From a virus (lineage: Duplodnaviria; Heunggongvirae; Uroviricota; Caudoviricetes): a DNA stretch of 64,000 bases. Made by a program: the position numbers and the translations under genes. Location of the stretch: positions 317,413-381,412 of the IMG/VR virus record IMGVR_UViG_3300014205_000001. One strand, 5' to 3'. Under the pieces are notes generated by a model that was not told the origin of the DNA, ran no database searches, and saw only the letters and a program-made list of their open reading frames with translations. Every line of letters starts with the position of its first letter. Position 1 is the first letter of the stretch. Of the stretch, positions 3,719 to 53,000 are shown piece by piece.

Positions 3719-4459
3719 GTGCGAGTATTCATTCCTAAAGGCAAAAACAATCTTTTTATTTCCAACGAAATTATTACTGAAAACACTTACATTGCTTTCT
3801 TTGGTTTTTCTATTATGGGTTGGGAAATAATTTTCTATGAAGGGATGCCTCCCGAAGGATTGAATCGTGAAGATATTATTGTAGGTTTTATCACGCAAGT
3901 CAAAAAAGGATTAAGCAATCTAGGTATTGAACCACCCACAGAAATTGATTATCCTGAAGAAATTCAATCGTATTTAGGTCGTAAAGTTTGGCAAGATACT
4001 TTGCATCATATTTACACAGATAATTCGACGTGGCCCGTATTTGTAAAACCTGTTAAAGGAAAACAATTTGACGGAAAATTAATTACTTCTTTAAAAGATT
4101 TAGTGGGCTTAGGTTCACAAGAAGATCGTAAAATTTGGTGTAGTGAACCTGTGAAATTTCTTTCTGAATATCGTTGTTTTGTACGTTATGGAAAATTAGT
4201 AGATGCACGAAGATACAAAGGCGATTTTCGTTTAGTTCCTAATTTTAATGTTGTTGAACAGTGTATTAAAGATTATACGTCCCAACCTGTATCTTTTACT
4301 TTAGATTTTGGCGTGACAGAACAGGGTCATACTACTTTAATTGAAGTTAATGATGGTTATGCAATGGGAGCGTATGGAATGTCACCTACTGATTATGCCA
4401 AAATGATTTCAGCACGTTGGAGTCAATTAACTGATACACCTGACTATTGTATATTTTAA
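3719..4459 (+). CDS. ATP-grasp protein, R2K/DUF4343-like
   Basis: PVFVKP, SEYRCFV, LDFGVT..G.T.LIEVNDGYAMGAYG motifs; paralog at 25353. Confidence 0.75.
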   Translation: MRVFIPKGKNNLFISNEIITENTYIAFFGFSIMGWEIIFYEGMPPEGLNREDIIVGFITQVKKGLSNLGIEPPTEIDYPEEIQSYLGRKVWQDTLHHIYTDNSTWPVFVKPVKGKQFDGKLITSLKDLVGLGSQEDRKIWCSEPVKFLSEYRCFVRYGKLVDARRYKGDFRLVPNFNVVEQCIKDYTSQPVSFTLDFGVTEQGHTTLIEVNDGYAMGAYGMSPTDYAKMISARWSQLTDTPDYCIF

Positions 4460-4876: not shown

Positions 4877-5980
4877 ATGTTACAGATACAACAATATTTG
4901 CGTACTCACAGTTTAGAAAAAACTGTCGAAACTTTCAAATTAATTCACAAAGTTAAAGGTGATCTGAATATGTTTAAATACAATCAGATCGAATCCAACT
5001 ATGCATTAGAAGAAGTGCAAGAATCTCGTGGGTTGATTTTAGATGCAGCTAACGATTGGGCAGTTGTATGTTATACATTTCATAAATTTTTTAATACACA
5101 AGAAGGCTTTGCTCATCCAATCGATTGGAATAACTGTAAAGTGTATAAAAAAGAAGATGGGTCAATTTTGCAAATGTATCATTACAATAACGAATGGCAC
5201 GTTGCGACTTCAGGAACCATTGATGCAGATACTTATTCTAATGATGGTTTAATTTCCTTCAAGGATTTATTTTGGAAAACTGTTTCTATTCATTACAAAA
5301 TGACTAAAGAAGAATTTACAAACGAATTCAACACAAATTATTGTTATGCGTTTGAATTGTGTACTCCTTTCAATTTAGTCATTACGCAACACAAATCTTA
5401 TCGTTTAATTTTCTTAGGTTTGCGTAACAAATTAACTTTACAAGAAGAAGTAATTGAACAAGAAGAATTTAATTGGTTACAAATACCTGAAACATTTGAT
5501 CTTAAAAATGTAGATGATGTAATTAATTCTTTACAAGGTAAAGATTGGCAAGACGAAGGTTATGTTGTATGCGATATAAATTTTAATCGTCAGAAAATTA
5601 AAAATCCTGCGTATGTTGCTGTACATCATTTGAAAGGTAACTTAGGTGCACATCACGTTATGCAAGTTATTAAAGATAATGACTTGGATGAATTTTTTAT
5701 TTATTGTCCAGAACGTAAAGATGAAGTTACTCAATTAAAAATAGGTTACGATAAATTATTATGGGCGATTGAAAGTCAATATAAAACTTTTTTAAAAAAT
5801 GGTGAATACGAATCTGATAAAGATTTTGCATTAGATGTGCAAGCAAAAATCGCACGCCATTTTCAAGGAGTCATGTATAGTGTACGTAAAGGTAAAACTA
5901 CTTTTAAAGAATGGCTATATAAATACGACAATAAAGAATTGTATTTATTACTTACACCCGAAAGTAAATCAGAAATATAG
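4877..5980 (+). CDS. rnl1: RNA ligase, T4 Rnl1-like
   Basis: Nucleotidyltransferase motifs KEDGS (I), FELCTP (III) and EGYVV (IV); HKFFN motif; own promoter copy at 4862. Confidence 0.8.
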   Translation: MLQIQQYLRTHSLEKTVETFKLIHKVKGDLNMFKYNQIESNYALEEVQESRGLILDAANDWAVVCYTFHKFFNTQEGFAHPIDWNNCKVYKKEDGSILQMYHYNNEWHVATSGTIDADTYSNDGLISFKDLFWKTVSIHYKMTKEEFTNEFNTNYCYAFELCTPFNLVITQHKSYRLIFLGLRNKLTLQEEVIEQEEFNWLQIPETFDLKNVDDVINSLQGKDWQDEGYVVCDINFNRQKIKNPAYVAVHHLKGNLGAHHVMQVIKDNDLDEFFIYCPERKDEVTQLKIGYDKLLWAIESQYKTFLKNGEYESDKDFALDVQAKIARHFQGVMYSVRKGKTTFKEWLYKYDNKELYLLLTPESKSEI

Positions 5981-38258: not shown

Positions 38259-39536
38259 ATGAAAGCAGTACAAGTAGTAAAAATTAGTAAATTAATTCCA
38301 ATTTACAAAGAAGGCGTCGAAGCCAATTCCATTAATTTAGTAAACTTTGAGTTTCTTAATGGTGACGAATGTGGTTACAATGTAATCGCACAAAAAGGTT
38401 TATACGAATTAGGTGATAAAGCAATTTACATCATGCCTGATTTCTGTTTAAGTGAAATTTCATTGTTTGAATCTTTCACTGCACCCAATGGTGAACCTAA
38501 TAAAACGAAATTAGGTAAAATGAATCGTATTCGTGCCATCAAATTTAATTTTCAACAAGAAAATTCATCTGAACCTATTTTTAGTTTTGGTGTCTTATTA
38601 CCTATCACTGAAGTTAAATCTTATTTAGGTGATGCGTACGATGAAGAAACATTAACTGATACTTTAGGTATTACAAAATACGAAGAACCTGAAACTGCTG
38701 GTAGCGGTCAAACAAAAGGTGGACTACCTTCATTTTTATATTCTACTGACGAAACAAATCAAGAAACATTAAAATCACATATTAAAAAATTATGTGATGG
38801 CACAACTGAAATGGGATTTACGATTAAACGTGACGGATCATCTTTCACAACCTATTTCAGAAAAGATGAAAATGGTAATTGGTATCATGGTATTTGTTCA
38901 CGTAATCAAGAAAAGAAAACTGAACAATATTACGTTTCCAAATATGTGGATTCTCATAAAAATGAATACACTAAGTACATGGACCCTGAAACAAAAGAAA
39001 TGGGTTGGAAATGTCATGTCAATAATCATTTTGTAAATGAACGTGATATTTTAAATACAGATTGGAAACAAGTAACTACGGAAGTAAAAGATTCTTGGGT
39101 AGAACTTGCCAATAAATCTGGATTAATTGAACAAGGTATGGCATATTGCCAAGCCAATGATATTCAATTAGCATTCCGTGGTGAAATTTACGGACAAGGT
39201 TTAAAAGGTTCAGGTAATAAATCAAATCCGGACGCTGCCAAAAAACAAGGTTTGTATCTCTTTGGTGTAGATGATTTAAGTTCAGGATTTTCTGTAAGAA
39301 TAAACGATAGCAGTGAACATAATTTAAGTAAATTAGCTACACAATTTGGTATTGAATATTCAATTTCTGATTGGTATTTACCAACATCTTACGAAGACTT
39401 TTGTAATTTTTGTGAAAGTATTATTCAGGATGAAGCAAGTAAAGGCCGAATCATTGAAGGTGTAGTAGTAAGAACTCGTTATACAAACGAATTATCAACC
39501 AAGTACATGAATAAAGTGTACGACGCAAAAAAGTAA
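38259..39536 (+). CDS. RNA ligase, Rnl2/DRB0094-type
   Basis: N-terminal OB-like module (I.PI..AN.I...KG.Y..GD..IYI.PD), motif I KRDGSS, FRGEIYG, EGVVV, KYMN. Confidence 0.82.
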   Translation: MKAVQVVKISKLIPIYKEGVEANSINLVNFEFLNGDECGYNVIAQKGLYELGDKAIYIMPDFCLSEISLFESFTAPNGEPNKTKLGKMNRIRAIKFNFQQENSSEPIFSFGVLLPITEVKSYLGDAYDEETLTDTLGITKYEEPETAGSGQTKGGLPSFLYSTDETNQETLKSHIKKLCDGTTEMGFTIKRDGSSFTTYFRKDENGNWYHGICSRNQEKKTEQYYVSKYVDSHKNEYTKYMDPETKEMGWKCHVNNHFVNERDILNTDWKQVTTEVKDSWVELANKSGLIEQGMAYCQANDIQLAFRGEIYGQGLKGSGNKSNPDAAKKQGLYLFGVDDLSSGFSVRINDSSEHNLSKLATQFGIEYSISDWYLPTSYEDFCNFCESIIQDEASKGRIIEGVVVRTRYTNELSTKYMNKVYDAKK

Positions 39537-40573: not shown

Positions 40574-41137
40574 ATGAAACAACGTAAAACTCCACCTTTT
40601 CTTATCGACGAAATGTGCGATATTATTCAATTCGAATTTACAGAATTTGACCCATATTTTACTTCAATGTTAGAACCCTCTGCAGGTGAAGGTGATATGT
40701 TTGACGAACTATATTTAAATCGTTTATGTTTTGACGTGAGACGCGAAAATATTTTGTGTGTCGAATTAAACGAACAAAAAGCAAAAATTTGCGCAGATAA
40801 AAATTATCCCACCTTACGTGCTGACTTTTTGAAACATGATTTTGGTACTCGTAAATTTGACATTATTATTGCAGCTCCTCCTTTCATTAATAATGTAGAT
40901 GTTGAACACATCCAAAAAATGTATCGTTTACTTAAACCTAGTGGTATCATTGTTACATTGACAACTCCTTATTGGACAACAAACAATGAACCACATCAAG
41001 TTGTCTTTCGGGAATTTTTAAAAGATAAACGTTACTCATTAAAAATGGTACCCGACAATACTTTCATTGAGAAAGGTAAAACAGTCCCTACTGCAATATT
41101 AACTTTACATAAAAAATATACAAATGAAAATGCTTGA
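40574..41137 (+). CDS. SAM-dependent amino-methyltransferase-like protein
   Basis: Motif I LEPSAGEG, VELN, ADFL, FDIII; motif IV reads APPF instead of NPPF. Confidence 0.8.
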   Translation: MKQRKTPPFLIDEMCDIIQFEFTEFDPYFTSMLEPSAGEGDMFDELYLNRLCFDVRRENILCVELNEQKAKICADKNYPTLRADFLKHDFGTRKFDIIIAAPPFINNVDVEHIQKMYRLLKPSGIIVTLTTPYWTTNNEPHQVVFREFLKDKRYSLKMVPDNTFIEKGKTVPTAILTLHKKYTNENA

Positions 41138-49364: not shown

Positions 49365-51047
49365 ATGTTTACATCTAAAAAATCAAAGTTATTTGACGTA
49401 CCGTCAAAAACAAAAAGTACATCTGGTACTTCAACATCAGCATTCGTCAACGGCGGAATGAAAAAAGCCGTAGAAACAACATCACTTAACGGTGCAGTGA
49501 AATATTCTTCAACAGGAAATGATTTCGTAGATCAATTTGGAAAATTAGGTACTTATAAAGCACCACGTGCTTATAATGATATCGCAAAAGACCAAACATT
49601 GTTATACAGTCAAAATAAAATGTTGACAGTTGCATTTACTCTTTACATTCGTATGATTACTCGTGTTACAGATATTTTCGGTAAGAAAACTACTGTTTCA
49701 CAAAAAGGTGCAGAATTAAAGCACGAAGGTATCATGCGTATGATTTGGTTACATACACAGGACCCAAAAACATTCAAGAAAAATATTACGCTGTTTACAG
49801 CAGTAGGTTCTTGGAAAGATATTATTACAATGTTACAATATGACCTTGTATATAATGGTTGGAAAGGTCGTGTCCTTGATTGGAAATTCTTAGGTGAATT
49901 TATCCTTGCGGGATTAAGTGATGCTACACAATCTGAATTGTTGAAGAAATATCTTCCACAAATTAAAGCAAATTCACAATGTAAAACTGTTGAAGCGCAA
50001 GCAGATAACATGATTGCAAAATGGATTTGTCAATTATTATTCGGTAATAAGTCTGAAGGTGAAAACTATAAGACTTATAAAGCTTATCGTAAATTAAAAT
50101 CAGGTGGTACTGCTCACGAATGGCAACAATTGATCTCTCAAGGTAAACACAACTTGATTGAATTTGAAAAAATTCACGGACGTGCATTGAATTTATTAGT
50201 TCGTTCAAAATATTTGAAAAACCAAGGTTTGACAGAGAAATTTGAAAAATGGATTACTAAACCAACGACTGAAGCAAAATTCACTGGATTCGTTCATGAA
50301 TTATTCTCTAAATTGCCACATTCGTTAACAGGTTTAAACAAAGGTGAACAAGCTACAATTAATAAACAATTTGAAACTTTAGTTGCAAAAGGTCGTGAAG
50401 GTGAAAAGGATTTAAATTCAACATTGATTGTTGTACGTGATACATCAGCTTCAATGGGTTCAAACTGTGCTGGAACACCAATGTCTTGCTACGATGTAGC
50501 GAAATCGTTGGCACTATATTTCTCATCGTTCTTAACAGGAAAATTTGAAAATGCATGGATTGAATTTAACAGTGATGCTAAAATGCATACTTGGAAAGGT
50601 GCTACTGCACTTGACAAATGGTACAACGATCATTCAAGTTACGTTGGAAGTACTAATTTCCAATCAGTAATTAACTTGTTCGGTACTATTAAAAAACAAG
50701 GAGTTGCTGAATCGGAATTTCCAACAGGAATCCTTTGTATCAGCGACAGTGAATTTAATCCTGCTCAATTAGGTCGTACTAACGTAGATGCTGCAAAAGC
50801 TAATTTACGTAAAGCTGGATTCTCACAGGAATACGTCGATAATTTTGTAATCGTTCTTTGGAATGTGGCTCACACTTCAGGAAAAGGTGGACAAAAATTC
50901 GAAACATACGGCGACGTACCAGGCGTTTACTATTTCTCAGGTTATTCTGCTGCAACAGTAGCATTTTTAACTTCAGAAATTAAAACTGCTTCCGAATTAT
51001 TTGAAGCAGCTATGAATCAGGAAGTTCTTTCAATGATCGAACTTTAA
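49365..51047 (+). CDS. TROVE/Ro60-like RNA-binding protein with C-terminal vWA domain (DUF2828-type)
   Basis: Helical N-terminal region (R...G.K..G...M.WL, GSWKD, LL.KYLP) and a C-terminal vWA with MIDAS DTSAS, A.SLALYF, F..DAKM, GSTNFQ.V, ISDSEF, V.WNV; 560 aa, similar in size to Ro60. Confidence 0.7.
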   Translation: MFTSKKSKLFDVPSKTKSTSGTSTSAFVNGGMKKAVETTSLNGAVKYSSTGNDFVDQFGKLGTYKAPRAYNDIAKDQTLLYSQNKMLTVAFTLYIRMITRVTDIFGKKTTVSQKGAELKHEGIMRMIWLHTQDPKTFKKNITLFTAVGSWKDIITMLQYDLVYNGWKGRVLDWKFLGEFILAGLSDATQSELLKKYLPQIKANSQCKTVEAQADNMIAKWICQLLFGNKSEGENYKTYKAYRKLKSGGTAHEWQQLISQGKHNLIEFEKIHGRALNLLVRSKYLKNQGLTEKFEKWITKPTTEAKFTGFVHELFSKLPHSLTGLNKGEQATINKQFETLVAKGREGEKDLNSTLIVVRDTSASMGSNCAGTPMSCYDVAKSLALYFSSFLTGKFENAWIEFNSDAKMHTWKGATALDKWYNDHSSYVGSTNFQSVINLFGTIKKQGVAESEFPTGILCISDSEFNPAQLGRTNVDAAKANLRKAGFSQEYVDNFVIVLWNVAHTSGKGGQKFETYGDVPGVYYFSGYSAATVAFLTSEIKTASELFEAAMNQEVLSMIEL

Positions 51048-51122: not shown

Positions 51123-51551
51123 CTTTATACAATAAAGCTGTTTAAATTTAATGAAACAAATGTAAAATATTCAAGGATATTTACAAGAGCAACTAGGACG
51201 TAAGTAGTGTCGAGCGAAAACGTGATAAACCTATAGCTATCATTAAAAATATTAGTGGAATAAAACATAACAGAAATGCATGTAAGACTAAATCTGTTGT
51301 ACTATAATGTTTTATTCAAAGATGAATAACAGCAATGTTCGTAAATAATGGTCCTAAGGTAGTTCAGGAACGAAAGTTCACAACGATATACTTAGTCTAA
51401 TACTTCATTTACCTTTGCATTAGGTATATAAGGAAAAACTACAGTGCCCAGTGTCGTACAGCAATAAACTTCTTCGATTCGTGCCTTTGAAGCACAAATC
51501 TTTTATTCTCCGATTTACGGCGACCGTACAAAAAGAATATTCATCTGCAAA

Positions 51552-51842
51552 AGGTTTTTCACAGCAATCTAAACGCATATCATTCAGAGATCGAAACAGG
51601 GGTTCGATTCCCTTCGCCAGCTCATTCCTACTTGTCCCTGAAGTAATTCAAACTTGTAGGTGCAAACAAAACAAATACTGTCCAATCGCAGGTAGCTATA
51701 GGCTAACGTTAAGTTATACCAATAGGAAAAGTCATGATTATTGAAATATAATTTCAAGGCTTGCTTAACCAAGATTCAGTCTTGCAGTATTATAAGCTGG
51801 TGTCGTCTAGTGGTTAGGACTCGTAGCAAAAAAAAGAAACCT
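51552..51842 (+). ncRNA. Array unit 4: circularly permuted tRNA-Glu-like domain
   Basis: T-arm AGGGG-TTCGATT-CCCTT (51598-51614) and acceptor 3' strand CGCCAGCT (51615-22) precede the acceptor 5' strand AGCTGGTG (51795-802) and D-arm GTCTAGTGGTTAGGAC (51805-20). Confidence 0.75.
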
Positions 51843-51846
51843 GAAA

Positions 51847-52007
51847 AGATTTACAACAGCAATTCAAACGTTAATTAAAACAGGCGTATGTGTCTATGGT
51901 CTTATAAGCCATAGTTTGGTTCGAATCCCACCTCCGGCACAAAAAATTACAACATGCCGGTGTATGCGAATTGGTCCAGCAGCCCGTAACAAAACAAACG
52001 TAAATCT
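51847..52007 (+). ncRNA. Array unit 5: circularly permuted tRNA-like domain
   Basis: Closing stem AGATTTAC/GTAAATCT; GGTTCGAAT at 51918; acceptor CCGGCA/TGCCGG (51934-39/51955-60) closed by a loop; D-arm TGCGAATTGGTCCAGCA. Confidence 0.72.
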
Positions 52008-52969
52008 GATAAATACTCTCACAGCAAATTAACTAAATTTTTATTGAAAAAAACCTCGCCCGGCGGAAGGCACGTTAAAGGGTTCGACTCCCTATGAGTA
52101 TTGATAAAGTTACATACAGCAAATTAAAAAAATTCAATTTTGGTTTGAAAAACAAGCGTAACTTGATAAAATAACAGCAAATTACTACGGTAAACAATTT
52201 CTCCTAAAAAGAAATCACATGGTTCAAACCCATAAATGTTATTTGATAAGAATACAATCAGCAACTAACGCAATACACTCTTAATGTAAAAAAGCAAACG
52301 TATTCTGATAAAATAGTACACAGCAATTATAAACTTCGTGACTAGTTAGGCTATATATGCACTATGCTAAAGTTAATATTTTAATATTGAAAGTTATGCG
52401 TCTTAGAACATTAGGTTGGAACTAATTATTCCTTAACTGGTTGGCAATCAGCCCGTACTCTAAGCCATTCAATAAGTAAATAGTATTAATTTCAGACGCG
52501 AACTCTTAAGAAGGCGTAAAGAATAATTAACTTTATGAGGGCCTTAAATACTATTTGAAAAATTTGTCTAACAGCAAAACAAAAATTTATCTGCCAAAAT
52601 CAAGATGGGTTTGGTTCGACTCCAAACGGTACGCGGGATGGCCGCAAAAATAGACAAATGATAAATGTACTTACAGCAAACTACAAAAAAAAACGTCCGA
52701 CTCAAAATCAGAAAATAGTTTAAAACAACAGTACATTGATAAAGTTACCAGCAGCAACATTAAAACGATATAAATAAACTCAATCTAAAACGTATAATGG
52801 TAACTTGGAACTTAAATGTTCACATGCTTAAAAGTCATCGTAACAGCAAACTTTACAAAAACTTCAATTATGTAAAACGACGAGTTGGGTTCGAATCCCG
52901 ACGCCAATGTGAAATCGGTAGCACGGTGCTGGAATAGATTTAAGATGACTTGGATATTCTTTATCACTT

Positions 52970-53000
52970 AAAATGCGATCTGTAAAAGGATCGCATTTTT
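52970..53000 (+). terminator. Intrinsic terminator ending the array transcript
   Basis: AAAATGCGATC / GATCGCATTTT. Confidence 0.85.

What the first reader, a model, noticed from the sequence alone, without database searches (positions are those of the whole stretch)
51481..52712. Short units display isolated anticodon stem-loops of several tRNAs
Several cargos are a 7-nt loop with U33 and a purine at position 37 on a short stem. GTGC-CTTTGAA-GCAC (Gln UUG, 51481-95); TTCAA-TTTTGGT-TTGAA (Gln UUG, 52133-49); TACA-CTCTTAA-TGTA (Lys CUU, 52274-88); GA-CTCAAAA-TC (Leu CAA, unit 12); TTT-CTCCTAA-AAA (Arg CCU, unit 8, which also has a T-arm ATGG-TTCAAAC-CCAT); and a weaker CTGCCAA (Gly GCC, unit 11, with T-arm GTTTGG-TTCGACT-CCAAAC). 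Anticodon nucleases used in phage defence recognise such loops (for example PrrC on tRNA-Lys). Inference: the array is an exchangeable panel of decoy substrates, a spacer-like record of which tRNAs the host defences cut.
Basis: partly seen in the sequence, partly recalled or inferred. Interest (0 to 1): 0.8.

Follow-up and report, generated by a model that had tools for sequence, protein, structure and literature searches.

The report
Anticodon-loop mimics on phage Y-like RNAs
A giant phage encodes, right behind a ring-shaped Ro60-like RNA-binding protein, a row of twelve small RNAs that share one docking handle and display look-alikes of tRNA anticodon loops, tRNA elbows and a piece of ribosomal RNA, probably as bait for host enzymes that attack the translation machinery.

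Summary
The anticodon-loop cargos are real and far above chance. In 441 non-redundant units from related loci, 65 carry a canonical tRNA loop on a stem of 4 or more Watson-Crick pairs (shuffles 1.2±1.0), and they keep tRNA rules (G37 only after G36). The 12 units (51320-52951) share a stem+ACAGCAA handle and follow a Ro60-fold gene in a 391-kb phage, probably of Bacteroidota. Four syntenic relatives keep the same units in nearly the same order, and anticodons switch by point change on AT-rich stems. So this is a tunable panel, not a spacer-like record. Other units are permuted tRNAs; one mimics 23S rRNA helices 68-71. Best reading: Y-like RNAs displayed on the Ro60-like ring as competitive bait for tRNA-directed host enzymes, likely anticodon nucleases (about 45%; binding, expression and cleavage untested). 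Known YrlA lacks an anticodon loop, and I found no paper on this family. This scan found the system, the anticodon mimics and the helix-69 mimic before on other DNA.

The parts
49365..51047 (+). Gene for a 560-aa Ro60/TROVE-fold protein (DUF7788/DUF2828 clade; helical ring plus vWA domain)
   Evidence: DUF7788 E 3e-10, phrog_850 E 2e-33; model pLDDT 87.7; top fold matches are all Ro60: 9KOP, 2I91, 1YVP Z 19.0, rmsd 4.3 over 436 residues
51110..51122 (+). boxA-like antitermination element ahead of the array (function inferred)
   Evidence: present at the same place in L241, L245, L246, L249
51198..51223 (+). Handle-less hairpin resembling E. coli 23S rRNA 241-256 (domain I), 14 of 16 bases, closing stem with compensatory changes
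   Evidence: L241 and L246 match 15 of 16 with different closing stems
51320..51546 (+). Unit 1: handle plus circularly permuted mimic of 23S rRNA helices 68-71; blocks 51346-62 (=1917-33), 51445-53 (=1834-42), 51514-28 (=1898-1912); tip hairpin 51481-95 with loop CUUUGAA
   Evidence: score 44.5, above all 100 shuffles, max 43; compensatory helix-69 pairs
51552..51842 (+). Unit 2: permuted tRNA (anticodon arm, T arm, long closed acceptor, D arm); loop 51582-88 reads UCA here, Gly-UCC in three relatives, Trp-CCA in one
51847..52007 (+). Unit 3: YrlA-topology T-acceptor-D module with an inserted Ile-UAU anticodon hairpin (51894-51914)
   Evidence: loop invariant, stem change compensated in L246
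52012..52102 (+). Unit 4: Ser-UGA loop (52043-49), long variable arm and T arm; Ser-GGA in two relatives
52107..52164 (+). Unit 5: short unit, hairpin 52133-49 with loop UUUUGGU (Bacteroidota tRNA-Gln loop; also a member of a GG-loop class with variable loop size)
   Evidence: invariant in 5 phages; equals the loop of 4 of 6 Bacteroidota tRNA-Gln
52169..52244 (+). Unit 6: shortened handle; D-like hairpin, 6-bp anticodon arm 52197-52215 (loop CCUAAAA, Leu-UAA with C33), T arm 52219-33
   Evidence: orthologues read Leu-CAA, Leu-UAA, Met-CAU
52249..52306 (+). Unit 7: short unit, Lys-CUU hairpin 52274-88; Asn-GUU in three relatives by a single change at position 34
52311..52556 (+). Unit 8: conserved 230-nt cargo with no tRNA or rRNA match
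   Evidence: alignment of orthologues, no nhmmer hit in E. coli rRNA
52562..52659 (+). Unit 9: weak Gly-like loop 52591-97, T arm 52609-27, small GC hairpin
   Evidence: fold z -2.9
52664..52737 (+). Unit 10: Leu-CAA loop (52701-07); Met-CAU in two relatives
52742..52806 (+). Unit 11: handle with an A-rich, poorly structured cargo
52832..52951 (+). Unit 12: T arm plus D-like module; hairpin degenerate here, Gln or Ser loops in relatives
52970..52999 (+). Intrinsic terminator-like hairpin closing the array
   Evidence: 12-bp stem plus U run; equivalent hairpins in relatives
4877..5980 (+). T4 Rnl1-type RNA ligase gene, not adjacent; possible repair partner (link inferred only)
   Evidence: PF09511 E 2e-17; no RtcB in the genome

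Best explanation
The array is a non-coding operon of twelve Y-RNA-like units of an undescribed family. Each has a handle (7-9-bp stem joining its ends, unpaired ACAGCAA beside the 5' strand) that docks on the Ro60-like ring encoded just upstream. The handle carries an exchangeable cargo that imitates part of the host translation apparatus. The short cargos are minimal anticodon stem-loops: they cannot decode, but they present a correct 7-nt loop. During infection the ring stabilises and displays them as competitive bait for host proteins that read anticodon loops, most likely anti-phage tRNA nucleases, sparing real tRNAs; the phage Rnl1 ligase could re-seal cut RNA. Specificity is retuned by point mutation, mostly at the wobble position, and by loss or shuffling of whole units, not by acquiring spacers. 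Shown: unit anatomy, selection on the loops, Ro60 fold, genetic linkage, orthology and anticodon switching. Inferred: transcription, processing at the GAUA linkers, binding to the protein, the nuclease target and repair.
For: Loops beyond chance. Loop rules match real tRNAs: G37 only after G36 (22 of 22), A37 after U36 (73 of 73), 78 loops identical to a real tRNA loop against 64±3 when flanks are permuted, although the stems have lost tRNA character. [quoted passage not shown] The spectrum does not follow codon demand: Glu, Asp and Gly codons are among the most used, yet NNC anticodons are 3 of 142 against 98 of 451. Position 34 is the most variable in orthologous units (7 extra states against 2 at position 33 and 1 at 37). 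Handle on the gene's strand within 2.5 kb in 73 of 96 distinct loci, reverse strand 2; in this genome 9 of 13 strict handles lie in this array. Ro60 fold. A competitor role for YrlA was already proposed (PMC7790460).
Against: No expression, binding or cleavage data. Mimic loops are overall no more host-like than phage tRNA loops (58 of 113 against 264 of 380; Gln is the exception). AriB needs contacts outside the anticodon arm, and only 11 of 73 NNU mimics have the G30-C40/A31-U39 stem. PrrC needs t6A37, and it is unknown whether these RNAs are modified. Glu, Asp and His loops, known nuclease targets from my own knowledge, are rare. Avoidance of repeated anticodons within an array is only a trend (4 against 7.4, p 0.09). 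Several cargos have no anticodon loop, and GG-tipped hairpins vary in loop size (19 of 64 have 7 nt).
Confidence: 0.45

Rival explanations
1. Tether library (RYPER-like). Each cargo recruits a host tRNA- or rRNA-binding enzyme (PNPase or another RNase, a synthetase, a ribosome factor) to the Ro60-like ring, to redirect or damp RNA decay and maturation for the phage.
For: This is the shown role of D. radiodurans Y RNA (PMC4201824); phage phiLo Ro60 with its Yrl RNAs binds and attenuates host PNPase (PMC12135203). Cargo diversity, including rRNA mimics, fits adaptors.
Against: Does not explain the Lys-UUU bias or the switching of anticodons between close relatives.
Confidence: 0.25
2. Tripwire. 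The loops are cut when a host tRNA nuclease fires; the cut (2',3'-cyclic phosphate end, opened gate) switches on the ring or recruits RNA repair.
For: The Salmonella rsr-yrlBA-rtcBA operon responds to anticodon-cut tRNAs; the phage has Rnl1; a panel of different loops suits sensing.
Against: No sensor, regulator or ligase gene is adjacent; no RtcB.
Confidence: 0.12
3. Substrates or sinks for position-37 modification enzymes (TsaD, MiaA, TrmD), or CCA-end-pairing loops in the case of the UGG-tipped hairpins.
For: Only the three hypermodified classes (U36A37, A36A37, G36G37) are kept and NNC is nearly absent; UGG occurs in 74 of 237 short units against 20 in shuffles. T-box, RNase P L15 and the 23S P loop pair with CCA through GG (own knowledge).
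Against: No obvious gain for a phage with 34 tRNAs of its own that need modifying.
Confidence: 0.1
4. Spacer-like record: the array captures tRNA fragments and stores them.
For: Repeat-like handles with variable cargos; unit content differs between distant phages.
Against: One-to-one orthology and conserved order at 73-82% protein identity; single-base anticodon changes; stems unlike tRNA stems; handles are not identical repeats. No integrase or RT among the neighbouring genes scanned.
Confidence: 0.03
5. Decaying tRNA gene relics with no function.
For: Long units derive from tRNA; some cargos are degenerate (units 11, 12).
Against: Loops and pairing are kept with compensatory changes while stems diverge; strict link to the Ro60-like gene in 73 of 96 loci.
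Confidence: 0.03

Closest known systems
Bacterial and phage Ro60 (Rsr) with YrlA/YrlB Y RNAs (Rfam RF02553; PMC4201824; bioRxiv 10.1101/312249; PMC7790460)
   Same: Ro60-fold gene next to same-strand structured RNAs; stem joining 5' and 3' ends with a short motif beside the 5' strand; circularly permuted tRNA module T-acceptor-D.
   Different: Motif is ACAGCAA, not GNCGAAN0-1G (0 of 441); no RF02553 hit; up to 12 tandem units rather than one or two; YrlA lacks an anticodon loop whereas here loops are the main cargo; rRNA mimics; protein 9-16% identical to solved Ro60s.
Thermus phage phiLo Ro60 with Yrl1/Yrl2 (PMC12135203; PDB 9KOP, 9L5Y)
   Same: Phage-encoded Ro60 with adjacent RNAs; best Foldseek match of the model.
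   Different: CGAA motif, two RNAs, no tRNA anticodon cargo reported; shown to dampen PNPase.
Dictyostelium Class I RNAs (Rfam RF01414; PMC7919456)
   Same: Short end-to-end stem with compensatory changes, adjacent motif ending in ACAGCAA, start AAG and end CUG, variable middle; weak covariance-model hits (E 0.09-0.48).
   Different: Eukaryotic, dispersed genes with DUSE promoters, bound by the RRM protein Rnp1A, no tRNA-like cargo known; scores far below the gathering cut-off (24.8 against 41.5).
Phage tRNAs and RNA ligases that counter anticodon nucleases (T4 Rnl1/Pnk against PrrC; T5 tRNAs against PARIS; PMC10264068, PMC12409363)
   Same: Same conflict, same target tRNAs (Lys, Thr, Asn).
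   Different: Those are functional, cleavage-resistant tRNAs or repair enzymes; these units cannot be charged or decode and keep canonical loops.
CRISPR arrays
   Same: Alternating conserved and variable segments in one transcript.
   Different: No identical repeats, no acquisition signature, cargo is a structural mimic and not a guide.

Membership tests
Ro60/TROVE proteins | Helical ring closed by a vWA domain | tested here: met
   All 13 Foldseek matches at E<=0.001 are Ro60/TROVE structures; 1YVP Z 19.0, rmsd 4.3, 436 aligned
Ro60/TROVE proteins | Binds a Y-type RNA | not testable with these tools
   Only genetic linkage: 73 of 96 loci
YrlA / Y RNA | Encoded within about 4 kb of Ro60 on the same strand | tested here: met
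   Array starts 273 nt after the stop codon
YrlA / Y RNA | GNCGAAN0-1G Ro-binding motif near the 5' end | tested here: not met
   0 of 441 units
YrlA / Y RNA | Match to Rfam RF02553 at the gathering score | tested here: not met
   No hit in the window, genome or 9 related loci
YrlA / Y RNA | Permuted tRNA domain with T arm, closed acceptor and D arm | tested here: met
   Units 2 and 3; 44 of 441 units by pattern; absent from the short anticodon units
YrlA / Y RNA | No anticodon loop | tested here: not met
   Loops present in 142 of 441 units; YrlA lacks one
tRNA genes | Cloverleaf with free acceptor ends, found by ARAGORN or RF00005 | tested here: not met
   0 in the window
Dictyostelium Class I RNA | End-to-end stem, adjacent 11-nt motif, AAG start and CUGU end | tested here: met
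   Start AAG 316 of 441, end CUG-A/U 305 of 441; features
Dictyostelium Class I RNA | RF01414 score above the cut-off | tested here: not met
   Best 24.8 bits against 41.5
CRISPR-like acquired array | Identical repeats, polar gain of spacers copied from a source | tested here: not met
   Orthologous units in conserved order, point changes, stems unlike tRNA
Anticodon-nuclease decoy | Is cut by, or inhibits, a tRNA nuclease | not testable with these tools
   Needs biochemistry; spectrum is compatible

The most novel reading that the evidence does not exclude
Phages (and some bacteria) carry a modular RNA bait library against translation-targeting immunity: one Ro60-like display protein plus a dozen RNAs that imitate anticodon loops, tRNA elbows and the 23S rRNA helix 68-71 face, retuned by single-base anticodon switches. 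It would be an RNA-based broad anti-defence system, and its loop spectrum would list the tRNAs that host nucleases attack in uncultured hosts.
Probability: 0.35. Interest if true: 0.9.

Novelty: new variant of a known kind. Interest (0 to 1): 0.72.

Why it matters
What the tRNA-like domain of bacterial Y RNAs is for is an open question, and tRNA cleavage is now seen as a common anti-phage strategy. This family presents the anticodon loop that YrlA lacks, in many identities, with natural single-base switches between close phages, which makes the competitor idea directly testable. It also extends Y-type mimicry from tRNA to ribosomal RNA and gives a possible prokaryotic link for the orphan Class I RNAs of Dictyostelium. 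A cultured phage with the system exists (Leptolyngbya phage Lbo-JY46).

Tried and rejected
ARAGORN and Rfam at gathering thresholds: nothing in the window. Sequence search of the PDB: no hit; the Ro60 link comes from the fold only. First two unit parsers mis-extended stems into the GAUA linkers; replaced by a fixed-geometry parser (876 forward against 38 reverse-strand calls). Arg-CCU register rejected by fold and orthology. Spacer acquisition rejected. Codon-demand explanation rejected. Prediction that mimic loops are more host-like than phage tRNA loops: failed overall, holds for Gln only; the true host is unknown, so this used four Bacteroidota genomes as stand-ins. Non-redundancy of anticodons within arrays: trend only (p 0.09). 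Unit 8 against rRNA: no match. rRNA alignment is individually significant only for the window, L106 and marginally L163; the case rests on recurring blocks and compensatory pairs. Many of the 33 helix-69 pattern hits in viral contigs were coding sequence or rRNA-like, not handle units. RtcB absent. Nine literature searches found no description of the family; two relevant reviews (Burroughs and Aravind 2016, Sim et al. 2020) were not held, so prior mention there is not excluded. No expression data could be searched.

Full report
Setting. The window is part of a complete 391,061-base phage genome with 34 tRNA genes elsewhere. Only 2% of long ORFs have a Shine-Dalgarno motif, which points to a Bacteroidota host (inference). 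The finding lies in a 2-kb non-coding stretch between a 560-aa gene (49365-51047) and a terminator-like hairpin (52970-52999). No tRNA or Rfam family is called there.

The protein. It matches DUF7788 and phrog_850 and has over 2,100 relatives. The model (pLDDT 87.7) matches only Ro60/TROVE structures at E<=0.001, headed by the Thermus phage phiLo Ro60. An independent aligner gives Z 19.0 to Xenopus Ro60 over 436 residues. It is a divergent Ro60-fold protein.

The array. It has twelve units. Each begins with a 7-9-bp stem, normally 10 nt before CAGCAA, that pairs with the unit's 3' end; a short GAUA-type linker follows. The same parser makes 876 calls on the gene strand of about 200 related loci and 38 on the reverse strands, with many different pair types at each stem position. 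A strict handle lies within 2.5 kb of the gene in 73 of 96 distinct loci. Some Saprospiraceae contigs carry the same units behind a 29-30% identical gene.

Check of the observation. The array holds 5 canonical anticodon loops on stems of at least 4 pairs (one is a linker artefact), against 0.14 in shuffles and 0.24 per equal window in the rest of the genome. Across 441 non-redundant units the count is 65 against 1.2±1.0. With no loop filter, 7 nt is the modal loop size in short units, and those loops show U33 in 79% and a purine at 37 in 91%. The loops obey tRNA rules: G37 appears only after G36, U36 is always followed by A37, and 78 of 142 equal a real tRNA loop against 64±3 after permuting flanks. 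The stems do not look like tRNA stems (GC 0.20 against 0.53). Selection therefore acts on the loop. Three were missed: Ile-UAU, Ser-UGA and a UCA loop.

Spectrum. Of 142 loops, Lys-UUU has 28, Gln-UUG 15, Pro-UGG 9, Thr-UGU 7, Ser-GCU 7, and Cys, Asn and Arg-UCU 6 each. Anticodons ending in C are 3 of 142, against 98 of 451 phage tRNA genes, although Glu, Asp and Gly codons are heavily used. [quoted passage not shown] This overlap is suggestive but weak, because known nucleases together hit most tRNAs. A caveat on the Gln/Pro class: GG-tipped hairpins come in loops of 3-10 nt and only 19 of 64 have 7, so part of that class may do something else, such as pairing with CCA ends.

Turnover. Four syntenic relatives (73-82% protein identity) carry the same units in nearly the same order. 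Unit 7 reads Lys-CUU here and Asn-GUU in three relatives, one base apart. Unit 10 reads Leu-CAA or Met-CAU; unit 6 Leu-UAA, Leu-CAA or Met-CAU; unit 2 UCA, Gly-UCC or Trp-CCA with compensated stems; unit 4 Ser-UGA or Ser-GGA. Unit 5 is invariant. Position 34 shows 7 extra states, 36 shows 4, 33 shows 2 and 37 shows 1 (hand-curated, nine units). Units 4 and 5 are swapped in this phage, and L242 has lost several units that L241 keeps. It is not a spacer-like record.

Other cargos. Units 2 and 3 are circularly permuted tRNAs of YrlA topology. Unit 1 is a permuted copy of 23S rRNA domain IV: three blocks match E. coli 1834-42, 1898-1912 and 1917-33, the permuted alignment beats all 100 shuffles, and the helix-69 stem is kept by compensatory changes in about 15 phage loci. 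The handle replaces the helix-69 loop, as it replaces the anticodon arm in YrlA. Helix names are from my own knowledge. A second rRNA-like hairpin lies at 51198-51223. Unit 8 is conserved but unexplained.

Mechanism. Most likely the operon is transcribed from upstream of a boxA-like element, cut into units, and each unit docks on the Ro60-like ring. The cargos then act as bait for host proteins that recognise translation RNAs, with anticodon nucleases the most plausible target of the short units (0.45). The genome encodes an Rnl1 ligase but no RtcB. Against this: mimic loops are not more host-like than phage tRNA loops overall, AriB needs contacts beyond the anticodon arm, and PrrC needs t6A37. 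Rivals are a RYPER-like tether library (0.25), a cleavage tripwire (0.12) and modification or CCA-binding roles (0.10). No step from transcription onwards has been shown.

Comparison. It works like Ro60 with YrlA but fails the YrlA membership tests: no GNCGAAN0-1G motif, no RF02553 hit, and YrlA has no anticodon loop. Hughes et al. suggested that YrlA might compete with an anticodon nuclease; this family is built as that idea would require. The handle closely resembles Dictyostelium Class I RNAs, below the cut-off. I found no paper on the family, with two reviews unavailable. Earlier notes of this scan report the system, anticodon mimics and helix-69 mimics in other genomes; I used them as leads only.

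Verdict. Observation largely confirmed with two corrections; interpretation partly supported. New variant of the Ro60-Y RNA kind; interest 0.72.

Noticed in passing
window 51320-51546: Unit 1 is a circularly permuted mimic of 23S rRNA helices 68-71, with the handle in place of the helix-69 loop; the same cargo occurs in about 15 phage loci with compensatory pairs, some as lone units with no Ro60-like gene in the fetched DNA (L218, L220, L224, L230, L240).
   Followed up: yes
window 51198-51223: Handle-less hairpin matching E. coli 23S 241-256, conserved in L241 and L246 with different closing stems; replaced by other sequence in L245.
   Followed up: partly
window 52311-52556: 230-nt cargo conserved in five close phages and L003; no tRNA, rRNA or Rfam match.
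   Followed up: partly
window 52133-52149 and 64 short units in related loci: A class of hairpins tipped by GG, mostly UGGU or UGGA, with loop sizes from 3 to 10 nt; could pair with tRNA CCA ends rather than mimic an anticodon.
   Followed up: partly
L206:5661-6012 (Leptolyngbya phage Lbo-JY46, PP438436.1): A cultured cyanophage has a 46% identical gene followed by five unannotated units, two with Lys-UUU loops.
   Followed up: partly
L175, L189, L192, L197 (bacterial MAG contigs, mostly Saprospiraceae): Distant homologues (about 30%) are followed by the same handle at a 9-nt offset, with Lys-UUU and Gly-UCC loops in L197.
   Followed up: partly
L241:6890-7040 and L242:6783: In L241 unit 9 has lost ACAGCAA but keeps its stem, and an extra handle-less unit follows; L242, with the same protein, has deleted several units.
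   Followed up: partly
window 52203-52209; L249, L004, L038: The loop CCUAAA(A/C), Leu-UAA-like with C33, recurs in unrelated units, so C33 may be a kept variant.
   Followed up: no
window 38259-39536: Second, weak RNA-ligase-like ORF (PF09511 E 2e-4) shortly before a methyltransferase gene at 40574-41137.
   Followed up: no
window 3719-4459: R2K-clade ATP-grasp gene close to the Rnl1 ligase gene.
   Followed up: no
all handles: Unit ends (AAG start, CUG end) and the ACAGCAA motif match Dictyostelium Class I RNAs; a Dictyostelium homologue of the protein was not looked for.
   Followed up: partly
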